Shown: positions 29,330-58,520, numbered from the stretch's first letter. The stretch: 64,000 nucleotides of DNA from an uncultured Gammaproteobacteria bacterium (GCA_902535975.1 CACAVP010000001.1:6352-70351); one strand, 5' to 3'. Translations and numbers: made by a program. The notes: generated by a model not told the origin, from the letters alone.

Positions 29330-29431
29330 GACTCACCCCGAGCTACAATAATTTCTGAGGTTAACATTTGTAGCTTATTATTTCAAATCGAAATTTATTT
29401 CAGAAGAAAAAAGAGTGTATTATATAAAAAA

Positions 29432-31379: not shown

Positions 31380-32598
31380 TTTTTATTTTGATAATACTTC
31401 TAATTGCTAGTGGTAATACAACAACTAATTGCATCCCAAGCAAAGACACAAGTGGCCCGTAAACTCCGTGTGTCTTGATTGTAATAATACTAAACAGTAA
31501 AATAACTAACGAGCTTAAAGAGTTTATTTTGAATAAAGGGTCAACTAAAAATGATCTTGTATAGATGATCAAGCTACCAATTATCTGATTTATTAGTATT
31601 GCGACTGCTAAAATAATCATTAAGTCAAAACTAAGCATCCTACTAGTTAAAACACTCAAGCTCTCCAAATAATAAAATATTGATATTATAACTACACCAG
31701 GTATGTAGATCTGAAATAACTCTCTAATGCTTTTAATATATATTTGATCTAAATTTCTAAGGTTCTTATTTGTTGCTTCTTGAGTCATGTTTGGAATACT
31801 TAAATGTAGCTTAGATGAGGAAATTAATAATATAGTATTGAGCATAGCTAAAGTTAGACCAAATTGTCCTGATAGTTCAACGGAAAGATAAATAAAAATT
31901 ATAAGTATCTGAAATTGTGTGATGATGTAACCGGCAAGCCAAGATATGCCAACGTGGATAACAAATGTCTCTCTGGGTAATTCGATGGAGTGGCTGGATA
32001 ATACTGAATTTAAATAAACATAAAATAGTCTATTATGTTTTTTTATCAAGTAAAGAATTTGCACTATAACAGCAGATATAGAAATCGCAATAGTAGCTAA
32101 GAGTCCAACAAAATATAAAACAACAATAAAAAAAAATATGATTGATGAAACATTCTGTACCAGTTTAATAAAATAAACTTCTCTTATATGTCCAGTCCCC
32201 TGCAAAATAGCAAATATTGGCATCAAAAATAAAAAAATTGAGGAGGTTAAACACAAGAGCAACCATATTGGTATCCAATTATAGGAAAGATTTTGATCTT
32301 GATAAGAGAAGAATATATAACCAATTATAGTAAAAGAAATAAAAAAAAATACACTGGACTTTAAATATTTAGGTGCAGAATATCTTAATAAATCATCACT
32401 ATTACTAATTTTTGATGATGATAGGTGTAAGAGTGATTCAGAATATCCAAAATCAAATAATGTATAAAATCCCACCATTGTTAAAAATGCATAATACCAA
32501 CCCTGCTCATAGATTGTTAGATAGCTTGTAACAAGAAAAAGAAATAGAATTCCTGTAACTGCATGGACTATTCGCTGTATGAGTATAATATTATTCAT
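31372..32598 (-). CDS. polytopic membrane protein, putative Wzx-type flippase
   Basis: ~12 hydrophobic segments. 408 aa. Position within the glycan cluster. No sequence motif verified. Confidence 0.35.
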   Translation of the reverse strand: MNNIILIQRIVHAVTGILFLFLVTSYLTIYEQGWYYAFLTMVGFYTLFDFGYSESLLHLSSSKISNSDDLLRYSAPKYLKSSVFFFISFTIIGYIFFSYQDQNLSYNWIPIWLLLCLTSSIFLFLMPIFAILQGTGHIREVYFIKLVQNVSSIIFFFIVVLYFVGLLATIAISISAVIVQILYLIKKHNRLFYVYLNSVLSSHSIELPRETFVIHVGISWLAGYIITQFQILIIFIYLSVELSGQFGLTLAMLNTILLISSSKLHLSIPNMTQEATNKNLRNLDQIYIKSIRELFQIYIPGVVIISIFYYLESLSVLTSRMLSFDLMIILAVAILINQIIGSLIIYTRSFLVDPLFKINSLSSLVILLFSIITIKTHGVYGPLVSLLGMQLVVVLPLAIRSIIKIKNV

Positions 32599-34390
32599 GA
32601 ACAGGGATTATCATATTCTCCTGAAGCTCTTCTTTGCTCAAAAATGGTGATAAATCCTCTAAAGGTGGTGAAGTTATTGTGCCATCCGGATGCTGCTTGG
32701 CCCCTAATTTAGGTTCGAAGCGTTGATTTGGATCTACAAAGACCTCGAGTATGCCAGACGATTTTTTCAGAAGTTTTTTGACTTCTCTCTCTAATTTACT
32801 TATATCTTTGCATGCTTCGTATTTAAAACCAAATGAGGAAGCAATTTTTCTGAATGACGGAAAAGTGACGCCACTTTTAGGACCAGAGCCAAATTCTTTT
32901 CCATTGAAGAAATTTTTTTGAGTTTGGAACATTGATACATACCCTTTATTGTTAATGATTATTATTTTTATTGGTAGTTGATTTGATTTGATAGTTTCTA
33001 GTTCTTGAAGATTCATCATAATGGAACCATCGCCTGTAATACATACAATGTCTTTCATGCCACTGCTATAGCATGCACCAATTGCCGCAGGTAAATCATA
33101 ACCCATTGTCGCGGACCCTGAGTTAGACCAAACCCTCTGGCCTTTTTTTATTTTAAATGCCTGGTGAGTTGTTACCACGGCCGTACCGTTTGCTGTTATA
33201 ACAATGTCATTATTTTTCATATTATTTGAGAGTATATCGATCAGACAGTACGGATTAATTTGTTTTTTAGGATTATAAAATTCATCCTTTACGACAGGAT
33301 ATTTTATTTTTCTTTTTTTACACCACGTAATCCAATCATTATGAAGCATAAGTTTATTTCGTATTTTCTGAGTTAATCTGGGGAGAAATATATTTAGATT
33401 TTTATGAACTTTTAAGTATGGTTTAACTGTATGTTTATTGAGTTCTGTTTTATCAACATCAACCCAGATAATTTTTGATGCTCTTGCAAACATTTTATAA
33501 TTGTAACTAACTTGTCTTATGTTAAGTCTAGAACCTAATACAAGGAGTAGATCAGAATTTTGAACAGCAAAGTTTCCTGCTCTATCACCAACCGTACCAG
33601 CTTTGCCAATATATAATTTATGGTCTTCCCATATCACATCTTGAGAGTTGAAAGAGGAAACTACTGGAATATTTAATAAATTTACCAGCTTAATGAAGTC
33701 TGCATGTTTACCCGACAATCTTATTCCACTTCCGCAATATATTACAGGCCTCTTTGATTTTTTGATTAGTGAGAGGATTTTTTTTAATTTATTATCAAGT
33801 TCTTTTTTATTTTCTACTATTCTTGGAGGAACATATCTCTTCATCTTTTTTATATCCACCATTGCTGCCTGAATATCCAAGGGTATATCAAGCCAACATG
33901 GTCCTGGTCTGCCAGATTTAGCTAAATAAATTGCTTTTTCAAGATCATATAGAACATCTTTAGCTTTTGTAATCATCTTAGAAAACTTTGTTATTGGTTT
34001 GATAACTGGAATTATATCTAGTTCTTGATCACCTAATTGTCTGAGAGGAACTTTTGAGGCGCTAACAGTTGTCTCTAGTTTTACTTGTCCAGATAGGACG
34101 ATCATTCCAATACTATCGACAAAAGCCCCATAAACGCCAGTTATAGCATTTGTCCCTCCTGGCCCTGATGTGACATTTAGAGCGCAGAGGTTGTTATTAA
34201 GTCTATAAAAAGATTCTGCAGCTATGCTAGATGCTTGCTCATGGTGATTGTAAATTACGTTGAATCTTTCATTTATAGAAAATGAATGATTAAGATGCAT
34301 AGACCCTCCCCCAGTGACTGAAAAACATGTGTTTATCCCATGTTTAGCCAAAGTTGTTACTATAAGGTCACTTACTTTTACAGTTGTCAT
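32591..34390 (-). CDS. thiamine-diphosphate-dependent enzyme, acetolactate-synthase-like (YerE-type sugar branching enzyme candidate)
   Basis: N-terminal TPP_enzyme_N. Central domain. C-terminal GDGS...MNLQELETI TPP-binding motif. Adjacent to ddhA/ddhB. Confidence 0.7.
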   Translation of the reverse strand: MTTVKVSDLIVTTLAKHGINTCFSVTGGGSMHLNHSFSINERFNVIYNHHEQASSIAAESFYRLNNNLCALNVTSGPGGTNAITGVYGAFVDSIGMIVLSGQVKLETTVSASKVPLRQLGDQELDIIPVIKPITKFSKMITKAKDVLYDLEKAIYLAKSGRPGPCWLDIPLDIQAAMVDIKKMKRYVPPRIVENKKELDNKLKKILSLIKKSKRPVIYCGSGIRLSGKHADFIKLVNLLNIPVVSSFNSQDVIWEDHKLYIGKAGTVGDRAGNFAVQNSDLLLVLGSRLNIRQVSYNYKMFARASKIIWVDVDKTELNKHTVKPYLKVHKNLNIFLPRLTQKIRNKLMLHNDWITWCKKRKIKYPVVKDEFYNPKKQINPYCLIDILSNNMKNNDIVITANGTAVVTTHQAFKIKKGQRVWSNSGSATMGYDLPAAIGACYSSGMKDIVCITGDGSIMMNLQELETIKSNQLPIKIIIINNKGYVSMFQTQKNFFNGKEFGSGPKSGVTFPSFRKIASSFGFKYEACKDISKLEREVKKLLKKSSGILEVFVDPNQRFEPKLGAKQHPDGTITSPPLEDLSPFLSKEELQENMIIPVHE

Positions 34391-35424
34391 TTATCTTTGT
34401 TCCATTGGTAGGTTCTCTCTATTGCTTCATTTAAAAATACAGATTGTTGAATACCGCTACAACTAATAATTTTATTATTATCAGGGACATATCTTGAAGT
34501 ATTCCATCCTACATCCTTTTTATCTTCAACTACGTAACTACTATGATATTTTGATGCAATCATATCAGCTAACTTAGATATTGATACGCATTCTTTTGAG
34601 CCAAGATTATATGATCCGCTTGTATTATCATCAACAAGGAGAAATAACATCCATAGTACCAGATCTGTTGGATAGAGATACGAGCGTACAGGCTTACCAT
34701 TTCCTTTTACAACAATTTTTTCTTTTTTTAATGCATTATCTATAAAATTACCTGCAGCAAAATGTATATCAAGAGAAAGCATTGGTCCAAGTAGTGCAAA
34801 TATCCTTGCATTTGCATATTTGAGGTTATATTTTTTACTATATAGTGCAAATAATGATTCAGATGAGCGTTTAGCCTCGGCATATGCATGAAGTGCGTTT
34901 GACGTATCTGGTGCAGATCTCTCTGACTCCTTGATATATTCGATATTACTATCTTGAACGCCATATATTGCCCCAGAGCTGAGGTTCAGTGCTCTGCCAG
35001 TAAATTTTTTCTTTTTTAGTTCTGAAAGAATTCTTTTTGTGCCATCAACTACTACTGAAAACATTTCTATTGGGTCTTTTTCGTTAAGTTCTGCACTTGC
35101 TGATGTTGCACCATGTACTAAGTAATCATAATTACAGTTTAGTGACATCTCTCTTATATCTGATTGGATTACATGAATCGATTGATTAGTAAAATCTATG
35201 TATTTATTTTGATACAATCTTTCTTTATCTCTTGTTAAGACATGTAATGTGTATGAGCAACCTGTCAATTTTTGATAATGAAGGAGGGATGATATTAGCC
35301 ATTTGCCTATGAATCCAGTACATCCGGTTAAAAGAATTTTTTTATTATCAAGTTTTTTCAGATACTTACCACCAACTTCGGTGATGTAATCTAGGTCATC
35401 ATTAATACACCACCTTTTATTCAT
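34387..35424 (-). CDS. NAD(P)-dependent epimerase/dehydratase family protein (extended SDR; sugar nucleotide reductase/epimerase)
   Basis: ILLTGCTGFIGKWL Rossmann fold. YAEAK catalytic motif. Confidence 0.6.
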   Translation of the reverse strand: MNKRWCINDDLDYITEVGGKYLKKLDNKKILLTGCTGFIGKWLISSLLHYQKLTGCSYTLHVLTRDKERLYQNKYIDFTNQSIHVIQSDIREMSLNCNYDYLVHGATSASAELNEKDPIEMFSVVVDGTKRILSELKKKKFTGRALNLSSGAIYGVQDSNIEYIKESERSAPDTSNALHAYAEAKRSSESLFALYSKKYNLKYANARIFALLGPMLSLDIHFAAGNFIDNALKKEKIVVKGNGKPVRSYLYPTDLVLWMLFLLVDDNTSGSYNLGSKECVSISKLADMIASKYHSSYVVEDKKDVGWNTSRYVPDNNKIISCSGIQQSVFLNEAIERTYQWNKDK

Positions 35425-36466
35425 CTAAATATTCGTGTATCTGTTTTTTAGAAAATTCTAACATATCCTTGTTATTCATATATGCTTTGTACCATTCTAC
35501 AGTAGCAGTCAGAGACTTTTCAAAACTCCACTTTGGAATCCAATCTAAATCTCTGCGTGACTTTGTTATATCTAAATAAAGCAACCCTGCCTCGTGATCA
35601 AACTTTTCTCTAGAGATATCATAGTTCAGCTCAGGCAATTCTATTTTCATGTACTCGACTACGTCTCTAACCGTTTTATGTGAGGTTTCATTCGGCCCAA
35701 AATTCCATGAGCCTTGCACATTTTCAACAGAATATAACCTCTCTGCAAGCTCCATATAACCAATAAGTGGTTCTAGTACATGTTGCCATGGTCTTACAGA
35801 GTCTGGATATCTTATCAGTAGCTGCTTATTAGAGATAATTGATCTAAAAATATCTGGTATTAATCTATAATTTGACCAATCTCCGCCTCCAATAACATTA
35901 CCAGCTCTTGCAGTTACTGCCCGAGGAATCTCTTTAAAGAAAGAAGATATGTATGCTGACGTTACGATCTCAGAGCAGGCTTTTGATGCAGAATATGCAT
36001 CATGACCACCAAGCTCGTCTGTTTCTTTATATCCTGTGTTTTTTTCGAGATTCTTATAACATTTATCAGATGTTACATTTACAAAAGCTTTTATATAATC
36101 AAAAGTTCTTACAATTTCGCAGATATTAACACTTCCAATTACATTTGTTTCAAAAGTATTAACCGGATCTTTATATGATTCTTTGACTATGCTTTGTGCG
36201 GCCATATGAAAAATAACTTCCGGTCTGTGCTCCGATACTAAGCTATGCAGATTGTTATAATCTTTAATGTTAGAAATATTACTTTTACAAACAGTATCTA
36301 ATTTATTTGTTTGAAATATCGAAGGCGTTGTATTCGGCTCTAACGATACACCTACTATTTCAGAGCCAAGTTCATTTAAAAGCATGGTTAACCATGAGCC
36401 TTTAAATCCTGTGTGACCAGTTATAAGGACCTTTTTATTTTTCCAAAAGTTAGTCTTTAAAGTCAT
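35417..36466 (-). CDS. rfbG: CDP-glucose 4,6-dehydratase
   Basis: FWKNKKVLITGHTGFKGSWL N-terminus typical of DdhB/RfbG. YSASK. Confidence 0.85.
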   Translation of the reverse strand: MTLKTNFWKNKKVLITGHTGFKGSWLTMLLNELGSEIVGVSLEPNTTPSIFQTNKLDTVCKSNISNIKDYNNLHSLVSEHRPEVIFHMAAQSIVKESYKDPVNTFETNVIGSVNICEIVRTFDYIKAFVNVTSDKCYKNLEKNTGYKETDELGGHDAYSASKACSEIVTSAYISSFFKEIPRAVTARAGNVIGGGDWSNYRLIPDIFRSIISNKQLLIRYPDSVRPWQHVLEPLIGYMELAERLYSVENVQGSWNFGPNETSHKTVRDVVEYMKIELPELNYDISREKFDHEAGLLYLDITKSRRDLDWIPKWSFEKSLTATVEWYKAYMNNKDMLEFSKKQIHEYLDE

Positions 36467-37223
36467 GCCAAGGGAATATTTTCTTAGACTGAGCTAGGTC
36501 ATTCAGATAATTCATGTCTCTCAATGTATCCATCGGTTGCCAGAAAAGTTCATGTTTATAAGCGCTAAGTTCATTTTTATCAGCCAATTTTTCAAGTGGC
36601 TCTCTTTCCCATATAGTCATGTCATTATTAATATAAGAGAATATTTCTGGCTCAAGAACAAAAAAACCTCCGTTTATCCAACCTGATTCTCCAATAGGTT
36701 TTTCAACAAATTTAGTTACAGATCCATTATCTAATGATACAGACCCAAACCTACCTTGTGGTTTAACTACTGTCATTGTTGAGATTTTTTTTGACTCCTT
36801 ATGGTGATCTAATAGTTTATTAATATCGATATTACCTACACCGTCACCATAAGTAAGAAAAAAGGTCCCATCTATATATTTTTTGATTCTTTGAATGCGG
36901 CCACCTGTCATTGTAGTTTCACCTGTATCAACTAACGTGACTCTCCAATTCTCCGAGTTATTTGAATGAACTTCCATCTTATTTTCTTTGAGATTAAATG
37001 TAATATCAGAATTACGAAGCAGAAAGTTAGAAAAATATTCTTTGATAGTATAACCTTTATAGCCACAACAGATTATAAAATCAGACACACCGTAGTAAGA
37101 ATATATCTTCATTACATGCCATAGAATTGGTTTGCCAGCAATCTCCACCATTGGTTTAGGCACTCTTGATGTCTCCTCTGAGAGTCTTGTTCCTAGGCCG
37201 CCAGCAAGAATTACTGCTTTCAT
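36450..37223 (-). CDS. rfbF: glucose-1-phosphate cytidylyltransferase
   Basis: MKAVILAGGLGTRLSEET..PKPMVEIAGKPILWHVMKIYS...FIICCGYKGY almost co-linear with Salmonella RfbF. Confidence 0.9.
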   Translation of the reverse strand: MKAVILAGGLGTRLSEETSRVPKPMVEIAGKPILWHVMKIYSYYGVSDFIICCGYKGYTIKEYFSNFLLRNSDITFNLKENKMEVHSNNSENWRVTLVDTGETTMTGGRIQRIKKYIDGTFFLTYGDGVGNIDINKLLDHHKESKKISTMTVVKPQGRFGSVSLDNGSVTKFVEKPIGESGWINGGFFVLEPEIFSYINNDMTIWEREPLEKLADKNELSAYKHELFWQPMDTLRDMNYLNDLAQSKKIFPWHDFKD

Positions 37224-37255
37224 AATAATCTCTGTAATATTTAAACTTATCTAAA

Positions 37256-38497
37256 CTAAAGTTTATGAGTAATGCAATAGTTTTTCAAACCTATAATTGT
37301 TGAATCAATAGCACTTGTACATTTCACAACTTTTAAATTTGTATTGTACTCTAATACTTCACAAAATTCAGGAATTTTCACACCAAGTGCACCAGTTACA
37401 TATATTTTTTTAAAATCTTGATAGCGTTTGATATCGTTGACGATAGATATATACTGATTAACAAGTGCCTTTTTTATAGAGTATATATAATCATCGATCT
37501 CGTTGATATTATCAATAGATGTTAAATTCTCATTTTTTTTATAACCATACAATCCTTTTATTATGCTCAGATTAATTTCATATTCATTATCATGATTTAT
37601 GTTATTACTAGTCTTGAATAACTTGTTCCAAAAAATAGAATCAATATTTTCATCAAATAGTGAATCGACATAAGAAGCATATTCATTAAGTACTCTGCCA
37701 CAAGGAATGTGCGTTAATGTATTAATGAATTTTTTATTCGCAAAGGGTCTAATTTCATAAGATAGATTTGGGGAATATTCCATGGAAACCTGAGAGCCTG
37801 TTCCCAGGTTTATGTTTACACTTGAAGACAAGTCAATTGACATTATAGCTGCTTGTAGATCACCTAAACCTCCATATATAGGGATATTTTTTTTTGAATA
37901 ATTTATATATCCAAGTGTTTCACTATATGATGAAACATCGTAAGTAATAATTTCTGTCTCATCCAAACTCTTCATCCAACTATTGTTCCAGATATCAAAT
38001 AATCCAGTGGCAGCAGCAAGATGTATGGATGTTTTATTGCTCCATGAACCATTTAAAAGAATTAAGGCGTCTATAAGTGAAAGGAGATGGCTTTTTTTAT
38101 GAAAATTTTCATGATACTTTAGATTGATTCTTGGTAACCCGACTTTGTCATTAATGCCAGTAATTTTTAACAAGCTGTCGTCTGGGCTTTGTATATTTTT
38201 TTCTTTGTTATGTGATAAATCTGCTCTCCATGATATATACAAATCTTCTTCTAATGGTGGCAAAGATTCAGATAATATAAATCCATGCATTTCAGAGCAT
38301 ATGGCTATTTTGTCAATGTCATGATGATATTCAAGATGTTCATGAAATCTCTCATTTATATACCTTAATGTTACTTTTGATCTTTCATTGAAAAATGTTC
38401 CAGGAGTGCTAAAAATATCTGACAAGACTTTAGTTTCAGAATTAAATAGCGATGATTTTACTCGACTAGCACCAAAGTCTATCAATAATATATTCAC
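37256..38497 (-). CDS. ASKHA-fold putative sugar/cyclitol kinase (hypothetical)
   Basis: N-terminal LLIDFGASRVK resembles the phosphate-1 motif of the actin-like ATPase/sugar kinase superfamily. Overlaps the DHQS-like gene by 4 nt. Confidence 0.3.
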   Translation of the reverse strand: MNILLIDFGASRVKSSLFNSETKVLSDIFSTPGTFFNERSKVTLRYINERFHEHLEYHHDIDKIAICSEMHGFILSESLPPLEEDLYISWRADLSHNKEKNIQSPDDSLLKITGINDKVGLPRINLKYHENFHKKSHLLSLIDALILLNGSWSNKTSIHLAAATGLFDIWNNSWMKSLDETEIITYDVSSYSETLGYINYSKKNIPIYGGLGDLQAAIMSIDLSSSVNINLGTGSQVSMEYSPNLSYEIRPFANKKFINTLTHIPCGRVLNEYASYVDSLFDENIDSIFWNKLFKTSNNINHDNEYEINLSIIKGLYGYKKNENLTSIDNINEIDDYIYSIKKALVNQYISIVNDIKRYQDFKKIYVTGALGVKIPEFCEVLEYNTNLKVVKCTSAIDSTIIGLKNYCITHKL

Positions 38498-39669
38498 ATC
38501 TGGCTTAAATTCTTAATTGTCTCATTGATTCGCTTATCACTCACTTCGTCAAGAGAGAAGTCAATAAATCTCATATCACCAATCCTGCTTATAATTGCTA
38601 ATTTTAAGTTTGACCCGATAACCTTTTTGTCTCTCTTTAGAAATTCAATAAAAGAACTATTTTTTAATGTAAAGAAATAGTCCAGTGAGTTTTTTGGGAC
38701 TATATTCATAACTATGTCCCTGATAACAGAGATGGTATCAGATGATAAATCTAAAATAGATCTAGAAAGTTCATTTTCAACCATGATCCCGAGCGCAACA
38801 GCTTGTCCATGTGGAATTTTAAAATCAACCATTGCTTCAATAGCATGACCTATGCTGTGACCATAATTCATTGATTTCCTATGATTAAGCTCAAACTCAT
38901 CATATTCCACTACTGACTTCTTAACAGATAAAGATAGCTTTATCAGTTTATCAAGAATTTCCTTATCTGGCTTTAAGAGACTATCATTAGATATCAAATG
39001 GTAAATAAGTTTTTTATATTGTAAAAAAACTTCCTCCCCACCTGTGATCGCTAACCTAAGAATTTCACCATAGCCTGAAAATATATCATCTTTATTAAGA
39101 GTATAATTAAAATTAGTATCAATAATTATTTCTCTTGGGGCGGAAAAGAGTGCAATTAAATTTTTGGTACCATTATGGTTCAAACCCGTCTTGCCCCCTA
39201 CGCAACTATCACTTTGACCCAATAAAGTTGTAGGGATATATTTCCAAGGTATCCCTCTTTTAAAGGTAGCTGCTGCATAAGCTACTAGATCTTGAATAAT
39301 TCCTCCACCTAACCCATAAATACATGTTCCTCGGTTAGCATTATTTTCAAGAAGAAAATCACATATTCTGAGAGCTTCATGAATATTTTTATTATCTTCT
39401 ACAGCTTCAACAATATAGGTAGGATAACTATTTAAAGTATCGCGTAAATTAGGATAAATCCTCATTATATTTTTATCAGCTATAAATATATAATCTGAAT
39501 ATTTTTCGTTATTTAGATCTATCTTACTTACAACATTATCAGTAAATGTTACTTTATAGTCTCGCGGTGAGGATGATATGCACATAGTATTTGAATTATT
39601 CAAATCCACATTAAAATCTGAACCATCAATTAAAAAATTATATTCACTAGTTGTTCTCAAAAAAACCAC
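38494..39669 (-). CDS. 3-dehydroquinate synthase-like sugar phosphate cyclase
   Basis: GLGGGIIQDLVAYAAATFKRGIPWKYIPTTLLGQSDSCVGGKTGLN, GTKNLIALFSAP and ELNHRKSMNYGHSIGHAIEA...HGQAVALG align block-for-block with AroB/DHQS-family motifs. ~80 aa N-terminal extension. Confidence 0.75.
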   Translation of the reverse strand: MVFLRTTSEYNFLIDGSDFNVDLNNSNTMCISSSPRDYKVTFTDNVVSKIDLNNEKYSDYIFIADKNIMRIYPNLRDTLNSYPTYIVEAVEDNKNIHEALRICDFLLENNANRGTCIYGLGGGIIQDLVAYAAATFKRGIPWKYIPTTLLGQSDSCVGGKTGLNHNGTKNLIALFSAPREIIIDTNFNYTLNKDDIFSGYGEILRLAITGGEEVFLQYKKLIYHLISNDSLLKPDKEILDKLIKLSLSVKKSVVEYDEFELNHRKSMNYGHSIGHAIEAMVDFKIPHGQAVALGIMVENELSRSILDLSSDTISVIRDIVMNIVPKNSLDYFFTLKNSSFIEFLKRDKKVIGSNLKLAIISRIGDMRFIDFSLDEVSDKRINETIKNLSQM

Positions 39670-40330
39670 CTGCTATAAATCCACCATCGATAGTAATATC
39701 TTGGCCAGTTAGATACGATGCTTTTTCACTACATAGGTAAAGCGCCATGTTACTTATGTCTTTAACATTTCCTAGTCTCTTCAAAGGTATTCGTGTTTCC
39801 AGTTTTACGATATCTTCTTTTGGAAGATTATTTCTTGTAAGTTTAGTATCAATAAAACCAGGAGTAATTGAGTTTACACGGATATCGTATTGACTAAGTT
39901 CTAAAGCAAGGTTTTTCATTACACCTTGTAACGCATGCTTTGATACAGAATACGGAAATCTACCAACTCTTCCATAGCTCGAATAAAGTGAGGAAATTAT
40001 AACTATCGATGATGATTTGGATAATAAATTCTTTGTTATCAAGTAATGGACTATCTTTACAAATGACATAAAGTTAATATTGATTGATTTAAGTATTCTT
40101 TCAATATCATCAGATTCAAAATGATTCAATTTATTATCTGCAGCACAAAAAATTAAGTTGTCATAAACAGTTACAATTGATTGAAGATATTTATCAACAG
40201 AGTCTTTTGAAGATAAATCTAAATCTGATCTTGTTGTTGCGATAACATTACTTGTTTTTGAAAATTCATCAGAAATAGACGTCCCAATATCGCCATTTCC
40301 TGAAATTATAAGAGTATTTTTCATGCTCAT
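39647..40330 (-). CDS. short-chain dehydrogenase/reductase (classical SDR)
   Basis: IISGNGDIG glycine motif. YSVSK catalytic motif. 227 aa. Confidence 0.7.
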   Translation of the reverse strand: MSMKNTLIISGNGDIGTSISDEFSKTSNVIATTRSDLDLSSKDSVDKYLQSIVTVYDNLIFCAADNKLNHFESDDIERILKSININFMSFVKIVHYLITKNLLSKSSSIVIISSLYSSYGRVGRFPYSVSKHALQGVMKNLALELSQYDIRVNSITPGFIDTKLTRNNLPKEDIVKLETRIPLKRLGNVKDISNMALYLCSEKASYLTGQDITIDGGFIAGGFFENN

Positions 40331-40344
40331 AGTATAAGTTTACC

Positions 40345-40755
40345 TCAATCCTCAGCTTTAAATGTAATTTTACTCTGCCAAAGATATCCAAATAATATAA
40401 CAGGTATTGCAAACATATATTGAGCAATTACAGGATGTAGACTTAAATAATATATCAGAGCAGGTAATATTATTATATTAAATAAATAAACAATTACATG
40501 ATAAGTACTAAACTTGAATAACTCTGATATATAATTACCAGAAGTCTTAAATACATAAATCTTATTAGTCATGTATGCAAATAGGACGGAAATTATGTAT
40601 GATCCCGTAAGAATTTGGAGATAGTGAAAATTAAATTCAAATAATACAAAGTATAAAATTGGGAATATACTAAGACCTACTATAGTATTTACGATTCCTA
40701 CATAGAGATAACTTTTTAATTTATTCTCAGCCAACACGTTGGTACTATTTTTCAT
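40345..40755 (-). CDS. GtrA-family polyprenyl-phosphate-sugar flippase-like membrane protein
   Basis: 136 aa with four hydrophobic helices. Y.YVGIVNTIVGLSIFPILYF N-terminus typical of GtrA. Confidence 0.55.
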   Translation of the reverse strand: MKNSTNVLAENKLKSYLYVGIVNTIVGLSIFPILYFVLFEFNFHYLQILTGSYIISVLFAYMTNKIYVFKTSGNYISELFKFSTYHVIVYLFNIIILPALIYYLSLHPVIAQYMFAIPVILFGYLWQSKITFKAED

Positions 40756-40853
40756 GATATTTGAATATAGTTGCTCTATGTTAGAAAATGATAGTTCATA
40801 TAATGTAATTTTTCCACATAATAAATAAGTAATGTATTTAAGCTATTGAATGT

Positions 40854-42884
40854 CTATTTTACAAAAGAATAAAATGAGTATAGCATTTTATTATTTACAT
40901 GTAATGCTTTTCCCTTATCAATAATTTCTTTATACCAATATTGATTAGATACATTCATTCTATAAACATATACACTCTCTTTTTTATAAGTAAAAGCCCT
41001 ATCCTCATAACATTGATGAACATTAGAGCATCTTGCTAGAACATTTTCAAAATCGTTCAAATGCATCTGAGAAACATAGAAAATTAAATCGGTACTATCT
41101 TTTAAATTACATTCATCAATAAAATCGGTAATAAATTCGCTATCACATGTTTCTGCGTCAATGTTCGCCCTTGCAAAGTTAATATTGTATTGACCAGAAA
41201 CGTATTTTTTAATGATAGAATCTTCCATCTTTTTTGGTGGCAAGAAGTTATTTTTTTTTATAAGTCCATAATGTCCCTGATGCACAACGTGTGGCATCTT
41301 TAACATATAAATATGCATTGGTGGATTATACTTCATTTGTTCAATAGTTTTTTTAAGACTAGAAGAGGATGTCGTATCGTACCAAAATAATAAATTATAT
41401 TTCGATTGATTATCACTTAAGAGATTAAACATTGGTATTGAAGGTGTGGTTAAGATATTATTGTTTTCATTTTTTTGAGCAAAAGAAATAATATCATGTG
41501 TAAATTTGTCCATATGTATACCTCTAAAAATACCACTCGAAAATGATCTTTCATTTTTAATGTTATCTATGATGCTATTTGTTTTATATCCCCACCATTC
41601 ATATGAAGGATTAACAAGTTTATTTATTCCAAAAAAGACAGTTACAGTAATTATGGGCAAGATAGTATTTCTTAAAATATAGCTATCATCAGCGTTGTGA
41701 CAATATTTCTTGATCACAAAAATTAACTCTGCAAAAAATAACGCAAGTAAGATTTCTAAACTTACAGAATTAAAACCAGCTGTAGTTGTTCCGCAGTACG
41801 CAAGTGCATATAACGGTATACACAACAACACCTCACCTTTGGAGTTATTTCTTAAAAGTCGTAACAGAGGCCAAGATAGTGCGAAGACGTAAAGCAGCGC
41901 TGTTTTTACTTTAAATATGATAAAAATAGATATTATTAATACGAGAATTAGTATCAGGTAGAGATGTGATCGGGCGTTAACATTAGATATTCCGATGAAT
42001 GTTGAAATATTTTGGTAGTAATTTCCTATGAATGAAGCAAGTTTTTCTTTATATGATTGGATTAGAAAATATACAGCATACACGAAGGTTATCAGTAATG
42101 CAGATACTGTTATGATTGCTCTATTACCTGGATCTAGAATAAACCTAGACAAAACGACGAATATAGACCCTTTTGGTGTATCAAGCGAGAAGATTGTTAC
42201 CCATGAAGGAGTTATGTAGGTCGTATAAGCTAATAATAAGGCTATACTCACCAAGAATACAAGATTCTTCTTTAGAATACCTAAAAAATTATAGCCATAG
42301 AGGATTAGAAATCCATTTAGATATAACAATAACCCAAAACCATAAATTACACCGATATTATGTTTAGTAAGGATTAGTAGACCTATTAATAATCCCGAAA
42401 ACAGAAATGTCTTATTTTTTATTTTATTACTTGCGCTTGGCAAAATGTAAATTGTGAGAGCAACAATAAGCGATACAATAGTGTGATAGTCTTTAGCAAC
42501 AAATGTTGAATTGCTTATTATTAAAAAAAATACTAATAATGAACTAATGATAGCAGAGTGAATGTCAGTATATTTTTTTAAGATTAAGAAAATTATATAA
42601 AAGTTTAATGCGTGCAATAAGGCGAATATATATCTCAAAGAAATAAAATCTAATCCAAAGAGATCTATTAATCTACTAAATACATGGACTGTTAAAGGGG
42701 GTAAAAAATAATTATATTCTTTATAAATATCTACTCCACTGTTTACATATACAGCAAAGCTTTCAAACCATCCCTCTGTGATGAAGAACTGATACTTAGA
42801 AATAAAATAATTAAAAATTAATATAACAGAAAAAAAAGCTATGTAGATGGCTAAGGATATAATATTTTTTTTATCAGTCTTCAA
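40854..42884 (-). CDS. large polytopic membrane protein with C-terminal soluble domain (GtrC/GT-C-like glycosyltransferase candidate)
   Basis: ~12 N-terminal TM helices plus ~250 aa hydrophilic C-terminus. Follows the GtrA-like gene. Confidence 0.3.
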   Translation of the reverse strand: MKTDKKNIISLAIYIAFFSVILIFNYFISKYQFFITEGWFESFAVYVNSGVDIYKEYNYFLPPLTVHVFSRLIDLFGLDFISLRYIFALLHALNFYIIFLILKKYTDIHSAIISSLLVFFLIISNSTFVAKDYHTIVSLIVALTIYILPSASNKIKNKTFLFSGLLIGLLILTKHNIGVIYGFGLLLYLNGFLILYGYNFLGILKKNLVFLVSIALLLAYTTYITPSWVTIFSLDTPKGSIFVVLSRFILDPGNRAIITVSALLITFVYAVYFLIQSYKEKLASFIGNYYQNISTFIGISNVNARSHLYLILILVLIISIFIIFKVKTALLYVFALSWPLLRLLRNNSKGEVLLCIPLYALAYCGTTTAGFNSVSLEILLALFFAELIFVIKKYCHNADDSYILRNTILPIITVTVFFGINKLVNPSYEWWGYKTNSIIDNIKNERSFSSGIFRGIHMDKFTHDIISFAQKNENNNILTTPSIPMFNLLSDNQSKYNLLFWYDTTSSSSLKKTIEQMKYNPPMHIYMLKMPHVVHQGHYGLIKKNNFLPPKKMEDSIIKKYVSGQYNINFARANIDAETCDSEFITDFIDECNLKDSTDLIFYVSQMHLNDFENVLARCSNVHQCYEDRAFTYKKESVYVYRMNVSNQYWYKEIIDKGKALHVNNKMLYSFYSFVK

Positions 42885-42931
42885 AGCAGTTACCTTTTTT
42901 AAAAAATTCGAATAGTGCGCTTATCATCATG

Positions 42932-44749
42932 TTAATTTATTTTTTTGTTCGTAAGAATGACTATTTCATCATAATTAAGGCTTTTGTTGAAATATGTTCC
43001 ATCATTAATAGTATTATATATTTCATCGTTTGCCATTAAACCTGCATCTGGGTTGCCTTTATAACTCAGGCCAATTATGTAATCTACGTCATTTTTTATT
43101 ATCTCTATAATATTATCAGACGAGACCTCCCTATATGAGGTTCCTAAGTGCCACCACAAAGGGAGTCCTGATGGTGGCACGATATTATACTTTGCATATA
43201 GATATTCAATTCTTGATAAAAATAGGATTTTCCTATTTTTAAGTTTATCTTGGTTGTCCTTAAAGAAACTCTCGACACTCTTCTCATAACGATAATGATA
43301 TTGTGATGTTTTATGATTTTTGAAAAATTCATCATCAAGAATTGCAGTATAGTCATTCCTATCAATAGGTGGCCCGGCAGTTAGAAGCTTTAATCTATAA
43401 AATCCCTCAAGAGAGAGGGAAACTATAATTATTATAGCCCATGGAGCTATAGTTTTTATAGTTGTTGAATCATAGGAATTATTTGCGATGAATGCTATCG
43501 CAATTGACAGAATAAGTATCCCGAAAGATGAAGACCTTACATCAAAACTTTGCAGAATTATAATAAATGTCAGTAATACACCAAAGAATCCCCATCCGAA
43601 CAAAATTAATTTATGCATACTAAATTGATCAGTAAAATCTTTTAGAACTCTATTTTTAATCAATGGTATCAGGAAATATATTGTTGTTATGAACAAGAAT
43701 AAGATTGGGATAATTTCCCAATTCCTTGATACCAATAAAAAGAAAAATGCAAAAAGGCCCAGCGTCCATGAAGGTGTAGGCCGATTGAATAGTCTCGATG
43801 AGATCAATTCTAATGTAAAAATAAGGATAAGTAGGAATTCAAAAAAATATAAAGAGTATTCTTTTAATCGTCCTCCAGATAAATCAAATAGATTAAATGT
43901 AAGTAATCCTGCATTAATAAAACCATGGATAGCAGACCTCTCACTCCCTATCATCGATAAATCATATATGTATTTGTTTATATCAAAAAATATAAAATTA
44001 GTTATTAGATATAGTGTTAAATAAAAAATAATACTTAAGTAAAAAATCCATATTAGGGTTAACTTTATTCGTTGATATATATTTATCTTAGTATCAAACA
44101 ATATCCATGTAGCAAGAAGCAAAGAATTCATTACTGCAAAACCCACACCTGTATTAGCTCGCATAAAACATAAAAACGATAAAATGAAAGCTAATAGAAT
44201 AATAGAAGGAGATGTTATCTTATTATAGTGCCTGTTGATGATTATTATGTACAAAAGAAAGGTTGAAAATGCTGCCATCACATTACTAGCATCATGAAGG
44301 TAAATAAAACCATCAGTTATTAAAGGCAATATGGTGGCAAATAAAAAAGCATAAAAAATTATTATGTTAGATTTTTTCGAGTTTAGATGATAATAAGTAC
44401 CGACTACAGCAAAGATAGATGTATAGATAATTAATCCATTAGTAAATAAATTCCATGTGACTCCATCATTGATAACAGCCATCAATTTTAAAATTACTGC
44501 AAAGCCAGGAGAAAAAGCATTATCAACAAAATCATGAAAGCTCTGACCGCTGTACATTGCTTGGGCAAGAGAAACAATAGGTGCGAGATCAAAACCTGCA
44601 AAACCTTTTGATCCTATAAAGGATGAATAGATTGCAGCTATCGTAAATACGAATGTCACAAAAAGAGCTTCTAGAAAATTTATTTTTTTAATAGCGTTCA
44701 ACAGAGGTTTCTCGTATTGTATAATCGGTATTTCCTGATCATTCTCCAA
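42932..44749 (-). CDS. large polytopic membrane protein (second GtrC/GT-C-like candidate, same layout as the neighbour)
   Basis: Same architecture as the 40854..42884 product. No verified catalytic motif. Confidence 0.3.
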   Translation of the reverse strand: MENDQEIPIIQYEKPLLNAIKKINFLEALFVTFVFTIAAIYSSFIGSKGFAGFDLAPIVSLAQAMYSGQSFHDFVDNAFSPGFAVILKLMAVINDGVTWNLFTNGLIIYTSIFAVVGTYYHLNSKKSNIIIFYAFLFATILPLITDGFIYLHDASNVMAAFSTFLLYIIIINRHYNKITSPSIILLAFILSFLCFMRANTGVGFAVMNSLLLATWILFDTKINIYQRIKLTLIWIFYLSIIFYLTLYLITNFIFFDINKYIYDLSMIGSERSAIHGFINAGLLTFNLFDLSGGRLKEYSLYFFEFLLILIFTLELISSRLFNRPTPSWTLGLFAFFFLLVSRNWEIIPILFLFITTIYFLIPLIKNRVLKDFTDQFSMHKLILFGWGFFGVLLTFIIILQSFDVRSSSFGILILSIAIAFIANNSYDSTTIKTIAPWAIIIIVSLSLEGFYRLKLLTAGPPIDRNDYTAILDDEFFKNHKTSQYHYRYEKSVESFFKDNQDKLKNRKILFLSRIEYLYAKYNIVPPSGLPLWWHLGTSYREVSSDNIIEIIKNDVDYIIGLSYKGNPDAGLMANDEIYNTINDGTYFNKSLNYDEIVILTNKKIN

Positions 44750-48720: not shown

Positions 48721-48744
48721 AAAATTTATTATTTAGTTTGGTAA

Positions 48745-50876: not shown

Positions 50877-50878
50877 TG

Positions 50879-55655: not shown

Positions 55656-55658
55656 AAA

Positions 55659-57017: not shown

Positions 57018-57018
57018 A

Positions 57019-57618: not shown

Positions 57619-57622
57619 TTTT

Positions 57623-58435: not shown

Positions 58436-58436
58436 A

Positions 58437-58520
58437 TGCCCAGGGCCGGAGTCGAACCGGCACGAGATTGCTCTCGAGGGATTTTAAGTCCCTTGCGTCT
58501 ACCAATTCCGCCACCCGGGC
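58437..58520 (-). tRNA. tRNA-Leu (anticodon UAA)
   Basis: Reverse complement GCCCGGGTGGCGGAATTGGTAGACGC...CTTAAAA loop...GGTTCGACTCC. Class II long arm. Confidence 0.85.

What the first reader, a model, noticed from the sequence alone, without database searches (positions are those of the whole stretch)
37256..40330. 3-dehydroquinate-synthase-like sugar-phosphate cyclase + ASKHA kinase-like + SDR trio inside a cell-surface glycan locus: a candidate carbasugar/C7-cyclitol branch
The 391-aa protein at 38494..39669 carries the full DHQS-family motif set: GGG..DL.....A.....G.....PTT.L.Q.DS.VGGKT..N, GKN.IGAF, and E..R..LN.GH..GHA.E...HG.AVA.G. DHQS paralogues are the sedoheptulose-7-phosphate cyclases EEVS, EVS, DDGS and DOIS that make carbocyclic pseudo-sugars. 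It overlaps an upstream SDR by 23 nt and a downstream ASKHA-like kinase (LLIDFGASRVK) by 4 nt. That is the cyclase-kinase-dehydrogenase core of the validamycin/acarbose-type cyclitol pathways (ValA/ValC/oxidoreductase). The trio sits among nucleotidyltransferases, a GtrA flippase and membrane glycosyltransferases. The same island has gmhA, which consumes the same substrate, sedoheptulose-7-P. A cyclitol made and activated for incorporation into a surface polysaccharide would be unusual. I know of no described O-antigen or capsule locus with a DHQS-like cyclase.
Basis: partly seen in the sequence, partly recalled or inferred. Interest (0 to 1): 0.85.

Follow-up and report, generated by a model that had tools for sequence, protein, structure and literature searches.

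The report
Dehydroquinate-synthase-like enzyme in branched-sugar operon
A reductase, a copy-like relative of the shikimate enzyme dehydroquinate synthase and a sugar kinase form a tightly conserved trio that belongs to a twelve-gene operon for an unusual branched cell-surface sugar; it looks like an undescribed way of preparing the sugar's side chain rather than a validamycin-type cyclitol pathway.

Summary
The three overlapping genes are real and conserved. In 29 non-redundant related loci the SDR lies directly upstream of the DHQS-like gene in 23/23 cases and the kinase directly downstream in 20/21.

- The cyclase has the DAHP-type active site of true dehydroquinate synthase. 13 of 15 positions match AroB; only K197R and L267M differ.
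- It lacks the sedoheptulose-7-P-cyclase signature.
- The kinase has an FGGY fold, not the ROK/ValC type.
- The gmhA-like gene belongs to a separate GDP-heptose-like module.

The trio is part of a larger module. Its other members are a NeuB-like synthase, a YerE/JanthE-like ThDP carboligase, CDP-glucose synthase and 4,6-dehydratase, a GtrA flippase, a polyprenyl-phosphate GT2 and a GT-C. The module recurs in marine metagenomes, Elusimicrobium simillimum and Brevinema andersonii.

In a sister clade a pyruvate aldolase replaces NeuB plus kinase.

Best model (inferred): NeuB-like makes a 3-deoxy-heptulosonate, the kinase phosphorylates it, the DHQS-like enzyme eliminates phosphate and the SDR reduces the ketone. 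This gives a 3,7-dideoxy α-keto acid, which the ThDP enzyme grafts onto CDP-4-keto-6-deoxyglucose to form a caryophyllose-like sugar.

True carbocycle formation is not excluded.

The parts
42932..44749 (-). 605-aa polytopic membrane protein, first gene of the co-directional string. It may be a second GT-C-type transferase.
   Evidence: ORF. No Pfam or NCBIfam hit. Its role is inferred from position only.
40854..42884 (-). 676-aa GT-C-fold membrane glycosyltransferase (PMT_2). Candidate periplasmic transferase that takes the sugar from the lipid carrier.
   Evidence: Pfam PMT_2, 36.6 bits, cut-off 26.1. Large membrane proteins sit at the equivalent place in L008 and L098.
40345..40755 (-). GtrA-family small membrane protein, the putative flippase for the polyprenyl-phosphate-sugar.
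   Evidence: Pfam GtrA_DPMS_TM, 60 bits. A GtrA gene is also present in L006, L008 and L098.
39647..40330 (-). Classical SDR ketoreductase (227 aa), overlapping the next gene and probably translationally coupled to it.
   Evidence: adh_short_C2, 129 bits. Best NCBIfam hits are FabG-like ketoreductases, all below cut-off. Immediate upstream neighbour of the DHQS-like gene in 23/23 loci. 23-nt overlap.
38494..39669 (-). DHQS-like NAD+/metal-dependent sugar-phosphate phospho-lyase (391 aa) with a DAHP-type active site.
   Evidence: Pfam DHQ_synthase and DHQS_C. TIGR04425 296 bits (cut-off 400) and aroB 261 bits (cut-off 305). Active-site typing. Tree. Comparison with solved structures.
37256..38497 (-). 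Divergent FGGY-family carbohydrate kinase (413 aa).
   Evidence: Homologues carry PF00370. Kinase motifs are invariant: D7, G9, K14, G212-D213-Q215, G232-T233-G234-S235. Model pLDDT 90. Foldseek hits are FGGY kinases. The subfamily is small: 726 representatives at E<=1e-3 among 1.84 billion.
36450..37223 (-). Glucose-1-phosphate cytidylyltransferase (RfbF/DdhA).
   Evidence: TIGR02623 equivalog, 401 bits, cut-off 300.
35417..36466 (-). CDP-glucose 4,6-dehydratase (RfbG/DdhB), which makes the 4-keto-6-deoxy acceptor.
   Evidence: TIGR02622 equivalog, 452 bits, cut-off 278.
34387..35424 (-). Extended-SDR epimerase/reductase (345 aa). Candidate YerF-like reductase of the branch ketone.
   Evidence: Pfam Epimerase, 109 bits. 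Homologues (Epim345/Epim322) occur in at least 8 related loci. The function is inferred.
32591..34390 (-). YerE/JanthE-like ThDP-dependent carboligase (599 aa).
   Evidence: All three TPP_enzyme domains. Best solved relative is 8rph (JanthE, a YerE-like enzyme), 418 bits over the full length, against at most 233 bits for plant acetolactate synthases (identity of 8rph from PMC12188165). Present in 14 of 17 related loci of at least 9 kb.
31372..32598 (-). 408-aa polytopic membrane protein. It may be a Wzx-like flippase.
   Evidence: ORF, no Pfam hit. 28% identical to a protein at the same place in L013.
30366..31379 (-). GT2 glycosyltransferase (337 aa).
   Evidence: Pfam Glycos_transf_2, 61 bits.
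29432..30376 (-). GtrB/ArnC/PgfS-like GT2 (314 aa) with a C-terminal membrane anchor. Candidate polyprenyl-phosphate glycosyltransferase.
   Evidence: NCBIfam PgfS 146 bits and ArnC 95 bits, both below cut-off. 44-47% identical homologues lie next to GtrA in L001 and L008.
28220..29329 (-). NeuB-family PEP-dependent ulosonic-acid synthase (369 aa). It is the most conserved gene of the module.
   Evidence: Pfam NeuB, 126 bits. PseI and NeuB equivalogs only about 110 bits. Best PDB hit 3g8r, 191 bits. 55-60% identical in L001, L006, L008, L010. Present in 14 of 17 loci of at least 9 kb.

Best explanation
The trio is the middle of one pathway, encoded by the co-directional gene string 44749..28220. 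The pathway builds a CDP-activated, C4-acyl-branched higher-carbon sugar of the yersiniose/erwiniose/caryophyllose kind and installs it on a periplasmic acceptor.

**Steps assigned by homology (family membership shown, activities not tested)**
1. RfbF and RfbG make CDP-4-keto-6-deoxy-D-glucose.
2. A YerE/JanthE-like ThDP enzyme is the carboligase.
3. A GtrB/ArnC-like GT2, GtrA and a GT-C form a lipid-carrier transfer system.

**Steps inferred**
1. The NeuB-like synthase condenses PEP with a free tetrose-size aldose to give a 3-deoxy-hept-2-ulosonic acid.
2. The FGGY kinase phosphorylates its terminal hydroxyl, giving a DAHP-like compound.
3. The DHQS-like enzyme binds it through the conserved DAHP carboxylate and phosphate pocket. 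It carries out the first half of the DHQS reaction: transient NAD+ oxidation followed by beta-elimination of phosphate.
4. The translationally coupled SDR reduces the resulting 6-ketone before it can cyclise. The product is a 3,7-dideoxy-heptulosonic acid that is still an α-keto acid.
5. The ThDP enzyme decarboxylates this donor and adds it to C4 of the CDP-keto-sugar.
6. The 345-aa extended SDR reduces the branch ketone.

On this model the trio is a kinase, lyase and reductase cassette for terminal deoxygenation of the side-chain precursor.
For: **Module conservation**
- SDR, DHQS-like and FGGY genes are invariably adjacent.
- ThDP and NeuB-like genes are each present in 14 of 17 loci of at least 9 kb.
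- Elusimicrobium simillimum has a single operon RfbF-RfbG-RfbH-reductase-SDR-DHQSL-FGGY-NeuB-ThDP-membrane protein-GtrA-GT2.
- Brevinema andersonii carries the same core.

**Active site**
- R130, D146, K152, N162, E194, K250, R264, N268, H271, H275, H287 and K356 (A. nidulans numbering) are invariant in 114/114 family members.
- They are also invariant across all three glycan-associated clades.
- They are identical to four annotated AroBs and unlike an S7P cyclase.
- This points to a carboxylated, phosphorylated 3-deoxy-ulosonate as substrate.

**Alternative precursor routes**
- The sister clade (TIGR04425 at or above 400 bits) has ThDP-SDR-DHQSL plus an HpcH/HpaI or HMGL-like pyruvate aldolase in 11 loci. 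It has no kinase, and only one locus (L052) has a NeuB-like gene.
- The window's clade has NeuB plus kinase and no such aldolase.
- So NeuB plus kinase and aldolase look like alternative routes to the same phosphorylated keto-acid.

**ThDP enzyme**
- It is YerE-like (PMC12188165).
- Characterised relatives ErwE and MMAR_2332 use gamma-hydroxy α-keto acids made by an adjacent aldolase and add them to CDP-4-keto-3,6-dideoxyglucose.
- By my reading of the caryophyllose structure, the donor proposed for caryophyllose (compound 8 of that paper, whose main text does not name it) is a 3,7-dideoxy-heptulosonic acid (PMC9306805).

**Third clade**
- Its DHQS-like and SDR genes sit with a D-2-hydroxyacid dehydrogenase and a KdsB/NeuA-type CMP-transferase.
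- These enzymes also need a 2-keto acid or 2-ulosonic acid, not a carbocycle.
Against: - No enzyme of this module has been assayed. The order of steps and the size and stereochemistry of the keto acid are inference.
- Every DHQS catalytic residue is conserved. From published DHQS enzymology (my knowledge), the enol intermediate of the DHQS reaction cyclises readily even off the enzyme. Escaping cyclisation would therefore need active interception, and no DHQS homologue is known to stop at elimination.
- The invariant changes K197R and L267M are unexplained.
- The source of a free tetrose is unknown.
- Only about half of the loci have RfbF/RfbG within reach (9 of 17). L002 shows the trio without NeuB or ThDP in the 10 kb seen downstream.
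- GtrB/ArnC-type enzymes normally use UDP-sugars, not CDP-sugars.
Confidence: 0.5

Rival explanations
1. True cyclase acting on the free acid. The DHQS-like enzyme completes the DHQS reaction on DAHP or an isomer made by NeuB plus kinase. The SDR reduces the product to a quinate-like carbocyclic acid, which ends up in the glycan as a substituent or as the ketone acceptor of the ThDP enzyme.
For: The DHQS catalytic set is fully conserved. The protein is closest to solved DHQS structures. YerE-like enzymes accept cyclic ketones as acceptors (PMC12188165, PMC12247030). Carbocyclic O-antigen sugars exist whose genes are unknown, for example bradyrhizose (PMC4743980).
Against: A dehydroquinate-type product is an α-hydroxy acid and cannot serve as a ThDP donor. 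No ligase, acyltransferase or nucleotidyltransferase for a cyclitol acid is conserved in the module. The partners in the sister clades (pyruvate aldolase plus ThDP; 2-hydroxyacid dehydrogenase plus CMP-transferase) all point to a keto-acid product.
Confidence: 0.15
2. Cyclisation after ligation. The ThDP enzyme first couples the phosphorylated keto acid to the CDP-keto-sugar. The DHQS-like enzyme then cyclises the phosphorylated side chain, giving a sugar that carries or is fused to a cyclohexane ring (caryose/bradyrhizose-like).
For: After ligation the side chain would be a DAHP analogue with the sugar in place of the carboxylate. The requirement for a glucose 4,6-dehydratase gene for bradyrhizose (PMC4743980) shows that a 4-keto-6-deoxyhexose can be a precursor of a carbocyclic sugar.
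Against: K250 and R264 are invariant in all clades, including the clade that has no ThDP enzyme. In the comparator S7P cyclase both are replaced. From my recollection of the DHQS-inhibitor crystal structure they contact the carboxylate. A DHQS-size protein has no obvious room for a CDP-hexose.
Confidence: 0.08
3. One reading: a sedoheptulose-7-phosphate cyclase (EEVS/EVS/DDGS-like) with a ValC-like cyclitol kinase, making a C7-cyclitol that is activated and built into the polysaccharide.
For: The gene order cyclase-kinase-dehydrogenase superficially resembles validamycin and acarbose clusters. A PGAP annotation calls one distant FGGY homologue 'sedoheptulokinase'.
Against: The S7P-cyclase signature (K250M, N268D/A, H275P) is absent. 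Similarity to ValA, DDGS and DOIS is weaker than to DHQS. The kinase has an FGGY fold, not ROK. gmhA belongs to another module.
Confidence: 0.04
4. Housekeeping aroB that happens to lie in the glycan island.
For: The AroB substrate residues are almost all canonical. No second DHQS homologue occurs in the 64-kb window.
Against: It scores below the aroB equivalog cut-off. It falls in a separate clade from AroBs in an unsupported NJ tree. It has no aroK or aroE neighbour. It overlaps glycan genes, and the same cassette sits in glycan operons of unrelated phyla. The rest of the genome could not be inspected.
Confidence: 0.02

Closest known systems
YerE-type acyl-branched sugar gene clusters: yersiniose (YerE/YerF), erwiniose (ErwE/F/I/J), caryophyllose (MMAR_2331/2332). 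'Unifying scheme' of Steitz et al. 2022, PMC9306805.
   Same: Genes for CDP-glucose synthase and 4,6-dehydratase are present, plus the RfbH 3-dehydrase in relatives. There is a YerE-like ThDP carboligase, an enzyme that builds a gamma-hydroxy α-keto acid, and a reductase. All lie in a surface-glycan locus.
   Different: The keto acid is built by a NeuB-family PEP-dependent synthase instead of a pyruvate aldolase. Three extra, invariably linked genes (FGGY kinase, DHQS-like enzyme, SDR) have no counterpart in the clusters described in the main text of that paper. The window lacks RfbH, so the 3-OH would be kept.
3-Dehydroquinate synthase (AroB, TIGR01357)
   Same: Same two Pfam domains. 13 of 15 active-site positions are identical, including the metal ligands and the phosphate- and carboxylate-binding residues. 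Solved DHQS structures are the closest by sequence (E 1e-41).
   Different: Scores below the equivalog cut-off (261 against 305 bits). Forms a separate clade. Has invariant K197R and L267M and an N-terminal extension of about 30 residues. Has no shikimate-pathway neighbours and is always coupled to an SDR in glycan operons.
NCBIfam TIGR04425, 'AroB-related putative sugar phosphate phospholyase (cyclizing)', a hypothetical equivalog
   Same: It is the sister group. It is also glycan-associated, also has an SDR immediately upstream, and has the same DAHP-type pocket.
   Different: The window's clade scores only 295-320 bits (cut-off 400). True members sit either with a pyruvate aldolase plus ThDP enzyme and no kinase, or with SIS, 2-hydroxyacid dehydrogenase, GFO/IDH/MocA and a CMP-transferase-cupin fusion in clusters that resemble nonulosonic-acid loci. 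The function of TIGR04425 itself is unassigned.
Sedoheptulose-7-phosphate cyclases with cyclitol kinases (ValA/ValC, AcbC/AcbM)
   Same: Same DHQS superfamily fold, and a kinase gene next to the cyclase.
   Different: The pocket residues differ (K250, R264, N268, H275, K356). The kinase families differ (FGGY against ROK). The context differs (surface glycan against secondary metabolite).
GtrABC / ArnC-ArnE/F-ArnT / PgfS-type lipid-carrier glycosylation systems
   Same: A GtrA-family protein, a GtrB/ArnC/PgfS-like GT2 and a GT-C membrane transferase are encoded together.
   Different: The donor would be a CDP-linked branched sugar rather than UDP-glucose or UDP-Ara4FN. The acceptor is unknown.

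Membership tests
3-dehydroquinate synthase AroB (TIGR01357) | Score at or above the curated equivalog cut-off of 305 bits | tested here: not met
   260.9 bits. Relatives score 242-277 bits.
3-dehydroquinate synthase AroB (TIGR01357) | Canonical DAHP, metal and phosphate pocket: R130 D146 K152 N162 E194 K197 K250 R264 L267 N268 H271 H275 H287 K356 | tested here: inconclusive
   13 of 15 scored positions are identical to four annotated AroBs. K197R and L267M differ and are invariant in the window's immediate family (114/114), while basal members of the clade keep K and L.
3-dehydroquinate synthase AroB (TIGR01357) | Shikimate-pathway role (aroK/aroE context; the only DHQS in the genome) | tested here: not met
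   It overlaps glycan genes and falls in a separate clade. The rest of the genome was not available.
TIGR04425 AroB-related putative phospholyase | Score at or above the cut-off of 400 bits | tested here: not met
   296.4 bits. Sister clades score 402-477 bits.
Sedoheptulose-7-P cyclases (EEVS/DDGS/EVS) | Pocket signature that replaces the DHQS residues K250, N268 and H275 (and R264 in DDGS) | tested here: not met
   Window signature RDKNERKRMNHHHKK against S7P cyclase RDKNEKMAVDHPHLL. ValA and DDGS residues were read from the alignments.
Sedoheptulose-7-P cyclases (EEVS/DDGS/EVS) | Closer to ValA/DDGS than to DHQS by sequence | tested here: not met
   DHQS E 2.7e-41; DDGS 8.6e-21; ValA 8.2e-18.
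FGGY carbohydrate kinases | Two-domain ASKHA fold of the FGGY type | tested here: met
   Model pLDDT 90. The top 50 Foldseek PDB hits are FGGY kinases, TM 0.65-0.79.
FGGY carbohydrate kinases | Pfam FGGY_N at or above the gathering score | tested here: not met
   18 bits against 28.8 for the window protein. Most homologues at 30-40% identity do carry PF00370.
FGGY carbohydrate kinases | Conserved phosphate-binding and catalytic-Asp motifs | tested here: met
   D7, G9, K14, G212-D213-Q215 and N230/G232-T233-G234-S235 are invariant in 34 sequences. Assigning these to the FGGY motifs rests on my knowledge of glycerol kinase.
ROK-type cyclitol kinases (ValC/AcbM) | ROK/glucokinase fold | tested here: not met
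   No ROK structure appears among the top fold matches. No PDB sequence hit at E<=10.
YerE-like ThDP carboligases | Three ThDP-enzyme domains, and closest to characterised YerE-like enzymes rather than acetolactate synthases | tested here: met
   Pfam. JanthE (8rph) 418 bits, 5ahk 266 bits, AHAS at most 233 bits. JanthE is described as YerE-like in PMC12188165.
YerE-like ThDP carboligases | Carboligation of an α-keto acid onto a CDP-4-keto-sugar | not testable with these tools
   Needs an enzyme assay.
Acyl-branched sugar BGC (PMC9306805) | Genes for the CDP-4-keto-deoxyhexose acceptor | tested here: met
   RfbF 401 bits (cut-off 300) and RfbG 452 bits (cut-off 278). RfbH is absent from the window and present in relatives at 758 and 693 bits.
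Acyl-branched sugar BGC (PMC9306805) | Pyruvate aldolase (HpcH/HpaI or BphI/HMGL type) next to the ThDP enzyme | tested here: not met
   None in the window. A NeuB-family synthase is present instead. The aldolases do occur in the sister clade.
GtrABC-like lipid-carrier glycosylation | GtrA, a polyprenyl-phosphate GT2 and a GT-C encoded together | tested here: met
   GtrA 60 bits and PMT_2 36.6 bits. The GT2 gives PgfS- and ArnC-like hits below their equivalog cut-offs.

The most novel reading that the evidence does not exclude
The DHQS-like enzyme really does close a ring, either on the free acid or on the grafted side chain. These bacteria would then decorate their surface with a carbocycle-bearing sugar. 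The module would be the first genetic and enzymatic route to carbocyclic cell-surface sugars of the caryose/bradyrhizose kind, whose biosynthesis is unknown. It is widespread in marine bacteria and present in cultured Elusimicrobium and Brevinema.
Probability: 0.2. Interest if true: 0.88.

Novelty: new variant of a known kind. Interest (0 to 1): 0.62.

Why it matters
- **A shikimate enzyme fold recruited to glycan synthesis.** Dehydroquinate synthase is a textbook single-purpose enzyme of aromatic amino-acid synthesis. Here a large, phylogenetically separate set of near-identical active sites is hard-wired into surface-glycan operons of several phyla, including abundant marine bacteria.
- **Either outcome is new.** One possibility is a DHQS homologue that stops at phosphate elimination and acts as a deoxygenation device for sugar side chains. 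The other is a genuine carbocycle built into a cell-surface sugar.
- **It extends the acyl-branched sugar scheme.** The 2022 scheme gains a second, PEP- and kinase-dependent route to the keto-acid donor.
- **It gives leads on two open questions.** It offers a functional hypothesis for the uncharacterised NCBIfam family TIGR04425. It also suggests a candidate physiological donor type for JanthE-like enzymes, whose natural substrates are stated to be unknown.
- **It allows prediction from sequence.** Caryophyllose-like 12-carbon sugars could be predicted in uncultured bacteria.
- **It is testable.** Two cultured hosts carry the module.

Tried and rejected
- **Genome-collection scan.** I should have used an alignment. 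As a result I could not look for the cassette in Bradyrhizobium, Burkholderia caryophylli or Mycobacterium marinum, could not identify the window's organism, and could not check its genome for a second aroB.
- **Exact-sequence look-ups.** Look-ups of the window's own proteins found no record.
- **Cluster-member look-up.** It gave no organism names.
- **Literature searches.** I searched for TIGR04425, for DHQS together with O-antigen, for sugar phosphate cyclase together with polysaccharide, and for DHQS in the M. marinum LOS cluster. None found a description. The supplement of PMC9306805 and the paper PMC3133064 are not held.
- **Bradyrhizose.** The paper shows only that a dehydratase-containing 11-gene cluster is needed. 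The gene list is in a figure I could not read, so the link stays a lead.
- **Plasmid collection.** A tblastn search returned only ordinary aroB genes and secondary-metabolite cyclases. These were useful as comparators only.
- **A wrong recollection, corrected.** I first recalled that R264 becomes Asp in ValA. The alignments show that N268 becomes Asp in ValA and that R264 becomes Asp in DDGS.
- **Alternative roles for the ThDP enzyme.** I considered an IolD or cyclohexanedione-hydrolase-like role and rejected it. Cyclohexane-1,2-dione hydrolase scores only 87 bits, against 418 for JanthE.
- **gmhA as a functional partner.** Rejected, because it belongs to a separate GDP-heptose-like module.

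Full report
**1. What is there**

All genes from 44749 down to about 23692 lie on the minus strand. Gaps are tiny or the genes overlap, consistent with one transcription unit.

The three genes of the finding are exactly as described:
- An SDR at 39647..40330.
- A DHQS-family protein at 38494..39669.
- A 413-aa protein at 37256..38497.

The 23-nt and 4-nt overlaps are visible in the sequence: GTG within the SDR's last codons, and ATGTGA at the second junction.

Pfam and NCBIfam confirm the SDR and the two DHQS domains. The third protein gives only a sub-threshold FGGY_N hit (18 bits). Three further results establish it as a kinase:
- Its homologues at 30-40% identity carry PF00370.
- The nucleotide-binding and catalytic-Asp motifs are invariant in an alignment of 34 sequences.
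- An AlphaFold model (pLDDT 90) matches only FGGY kinases in the PDB: xylulo-, glucono-, glycerol- and fuculo-kinase, TM 0.72-0.79.

**2. The surroundings**

The same gene string encodes, in order:
- a 605-aa membrane protein;
- a GT-C (PMT_2);
- GtrA;
- the trio;
- glucose-1-P cytidylyltransferase RfbF (401 bits, equivalog);
- CDP-glucose 4,6-dehydratase RfbG (452 bits, equivalog);
- an extended-SDR reductase/epimerase;
- a 599-aa ThDP enzyme;
- a membrane protein;
- two GT2s, one of them GtrB/ArnC/PgfS-like;
- a NeuB-family synthase.

It sits with a mannose-1-P guanylyltransferase/PMI, a GHMP kinase, another nucleotidyltransferase, a second GtrA and a GT2. That is a separate GDP-heptose-like module.

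**3. Conservation elsewhere**

Exact-protein look-ups and one metagenome scan gave about 90 loci.

In 29 non-redundant loci of the window's clade:
- the SDR is the immediate upstream neighbour in 23/23;
- the FGGY-like gene is the immediate downstream neighbour in 20/21.

In the 17 loci of at least 9 kb:
- the ThDP enzyme is present in 14;
- the NeuB-like gene is present in 14;
- RfbF/RfbG are present in 9.

NeuB-like is the most conserved gene, at 55-60% identity.

Elusimicrobium simillimum carries the whole system as one operon: RfbF, RfbG, RfbH, a reductase, SDR, DHQS-like, FGGY, NeuB, ThDP, a large membrane protein, GtrA and GT2. Brevinema andersonii has the core.

The FGGY-like subfamily is small and specific. 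It has 726 representatives at E<=1e-3 and 51 at E<=1e-30 among 1.84 billion.

**4. What kind of DHQS homologue**

Against solved structures, true DHQS proteins are the best hits (E 1e-41). DOIS and DDGS follow at 1e-21 and ValA at 1e-17.

- Four annotated AroBs in shikimate contexts read RDKNEKKRLNHHHKK.
- The window protein reads RDKNERKRMNHHHKK.
- An annotated S7P cyclase reads RDKNEKMAVDHPHLL. Its own best PDB hits are ValA and DDGS.

The residues that S7P cyclases replace (K250, R264, N268, H275, K356) are therefore all of the DHQS type. They are invariant in 114/114 family members and in all related clades. Only K197R and L267M distinguish the window's subclade.

The protein scores 261 bits on aroB (cut-off 305) and 296 bits on TIGR04425 (cut-off 400), so it is a member of neither curated family.

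A neighbour-joining tree without support values places all glycan-associated sequences in a superclade apart from AroB, in three clades:
- **Clade 1**, which contains the window: SDR, DHQSL and FGGY with NeuB and ThDP.
- **Clade 2**: SDR and DHQSL with ThDP, RfbF/G/H and GT2, and no kinase.
- **Clade 3**: SIS, SDR, DHQSL, a D-2-hydroxyacid dehydrogenase, GFO/IDH/MocA and a KdsB/NeuA-type CMP-transferase-cupin, in clusters that resemble nonulosonic-acid loci.

Clades 2 and 3 are bona fide TIGR04425 members at 402-477 bits.

**5. The partners**

The ThDP enzyme's best solved relative is 8rph, at 418 bits over the full length, against at most 233 bits for plant acetolactate synthases. 8rph is JanthE, described as a YerE-like enzyme whose physiological substrates are unknown (PMC12188165).

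YerE-like enzymes decarboxylate an α-keto acid and add it to the C4 ketone of CDP-4-keto-3,6-dideoxyglucose. ErwE and MMAR_2332 use gamma-hydroxy keto acids made by an adjacent pyruvate aldolase. By my mapping of the caryophyllose structure onto their scheme, the donor proposed for caryophyllose is a 3,7-dideoxy-heptulosonic acid (PMC9306805).

Clade 2 loci carry exactly such aldolases next to ThDP-SDR-DHQSL: the HpcH/HpaI type in 9 loci and the HMGL/BphI-like type in 2. They have no kinase. Neither the window nor any clade 1 or clade 3 locus has these aldolases.

NeuB plus kinase and pyruvate aldolase are therefore alternatives. This fits with what is known of the two enzyme types. NeuB-type synthases use unphosphorylated aldoses (my knowledge), so a kinase is needed afterwards. 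An aldolase could instead take a phosphorylated aldehyde such as erythrose-4-P directly.

**6. Mechanism proposed**

Everything downstream of the DHQS-like enzyme needs a 2-keto acid. That holds for the ThDP enzyme in clades 1 and 2, and for the 2-hydroxyacid dehydrogenase and CMP-transferase in clade 3. A dehydroquinate-type product has no 2-keto group.

The most economical reading has five steps:
1. NeuB-like makes a 3-deoxy-heptulosonate.
2. The FGGY kinase makes its 7-phosphate, a DAHP-like compound.
3. The DHQS-like enzyme oxidises C5 transiently and eliminates phosphate.
4. The coupled SDR reduces the 6-ketone. The product is a 3,7-dideoxy-heptulosonate.
5. The ThDP enzyme transfers this to CDP-4-keto-6-deoxyglucose.

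Since the window has no RfbH, the 3-OH would be retained.

The 345-aa reductase would then reduce the branch ketone. The GT2, GtrA and GT-C would move the sugar through a lipid carrier to a periplasmic acceptor.

Family assignments rest on homology. The reaction order, the substrates and the non-cyclising outcome are all inferred. The main objection is chemical. The DHQS enol intermediate is known to cyclise readily, and no DHQS homologue is known to stop at elimination. I give this specific model about 0.5, and the broader statement that the trio serves a YerE-type branched-sugar pathway about 0.8.

**7. Rivals**

- True cyclisation on the free acid: 0.15.
- Cyclisation of the side chain after ligation: 0.08.
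- Housekeeping aroB: 0.02.

The last two are contradicted by the pocket typing, the kinase fold, the tree and the context. The first two remain open and are the exciting case. Carbocyclic O-antigen sugars exist, and the genes for bradyrhizose are stated to be unknown (PMC4743980).

**8. Novelty**

I found no description of this module in the searchable literature. Its nearest curated relative is a 'hypothetical equivalog'.

It is best filed as a new variant of the known acyl-branched-sugar pathways. The new elements are the kinase, DHQS-like and SDR branch, and a NeuB-type donor synthase.

**Limits**

- The organism and the rest of its genome could not be examined.
- The tree is a distance tree without support values.
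- Nothing was tested biochemically.

Noticed in passing
window 48028..53983 (minus strand) and 54606..59938: A second, separate lipid-carrier glycosylation module. It contains an NTP-transferase (230 aa), a GDP-mannose-4,6-dehydratase-like protein, a protein with a plant-type 'reversibly glycosylated polypeptide' domain (PF03214, 42 bits; 49773..50876), an epimerase, a GHMP kinase, GtrA and a GT2. Further on lie dehydratase, ManC/PMI, SIS (gmhA-like) and Bac_transf genes. It looks like a GDP-(6-deoxy)heptose pathway. An RGP-domain protein in a bacterium is unusual.
   Followed up: partly
window 26503..28176: A full-length formate-tetrahydrofolate ligase gene (883 bits) sits inside the glycan gene string, between the NeuB-like gene and a Wzy_C/O-antigen-ligase-like gene. 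No formyltransferase was seen nearby.
   Followed up: no
L072 521..14244; also L048, L067, L077, L082, L086: A third DHQS-like clade (TIGR04425, 423-477 bits) lies in a conserved set with SIS, SDR, DHQS-like, D-2-hydroxyacid dehydrogenase, GFO/IDH/MocA and a CTP_transf_3-cupin fusion. The set sits next to NeuB, UDP-GlcNAc 2-epimerase and CBS-nucleotidyltransferase genes, as in a legionaminic-acid-type cluster. This suggests a CMP-activated 7-carbon ulosonic acid or a modification of nonulosonic acids.
   Followed up: partly
L074 6716..7528; L033 15684..17288; nine further clade 2 loci: HpcH/HpaI-type or HMGL-like pyruvate aldolases lie directly beside ThDP-SDR-DHQS-like genes, and only in loci that lack the FGGY kinase and, with one exception (L052), a NeuB-like gene. 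The HpcH/HpaI type is the family of the M. marinum caryophyllose gene MMAR_2331. Described caryophyllose-type clusters may therefore also involve a DHQS-like enzyme.
   Followed up: partly
window 32591..34390: The closest solved structure is JanthE (8rph), whose physiological substrates are reported as unknown. The window's operon suggests the kind of donor and acceptor such enzymes may use. The window protein has the canonical GDG ThDP motif, not JanthE's CDG.
   Followed up: partly
window 28220..29329: The NeuB-like protein is much closer to the uncharacterised structural-genomics entry 3g8r ('probable spore coat polysaccharide biosynthesis protein E', 191 bits) than to N-acetylneuraminate or pseudaminate synthases (63-80 bits).
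   Followed up: no
window 45136..48031 (plus strand): Two plus-strand genes interrupt the minus-strand island: a 462-aa protein with a weak methyltransferase domain and a 505-aa protein with a weak sulfatase/phosphoethanolamine-transferase-like hit. They may be glycan-modifying enzymes.
   Followed up: no
window 63024..63962 and L006 20829..21164: Both the window's island and the related island in L006 (GCA_945875865.1) are bordered by a FabH (ACP_syn_III) gene. This hints at a shared insertion site, or at related organisms that carry swapped glycan cassettes.
   Followed up: no
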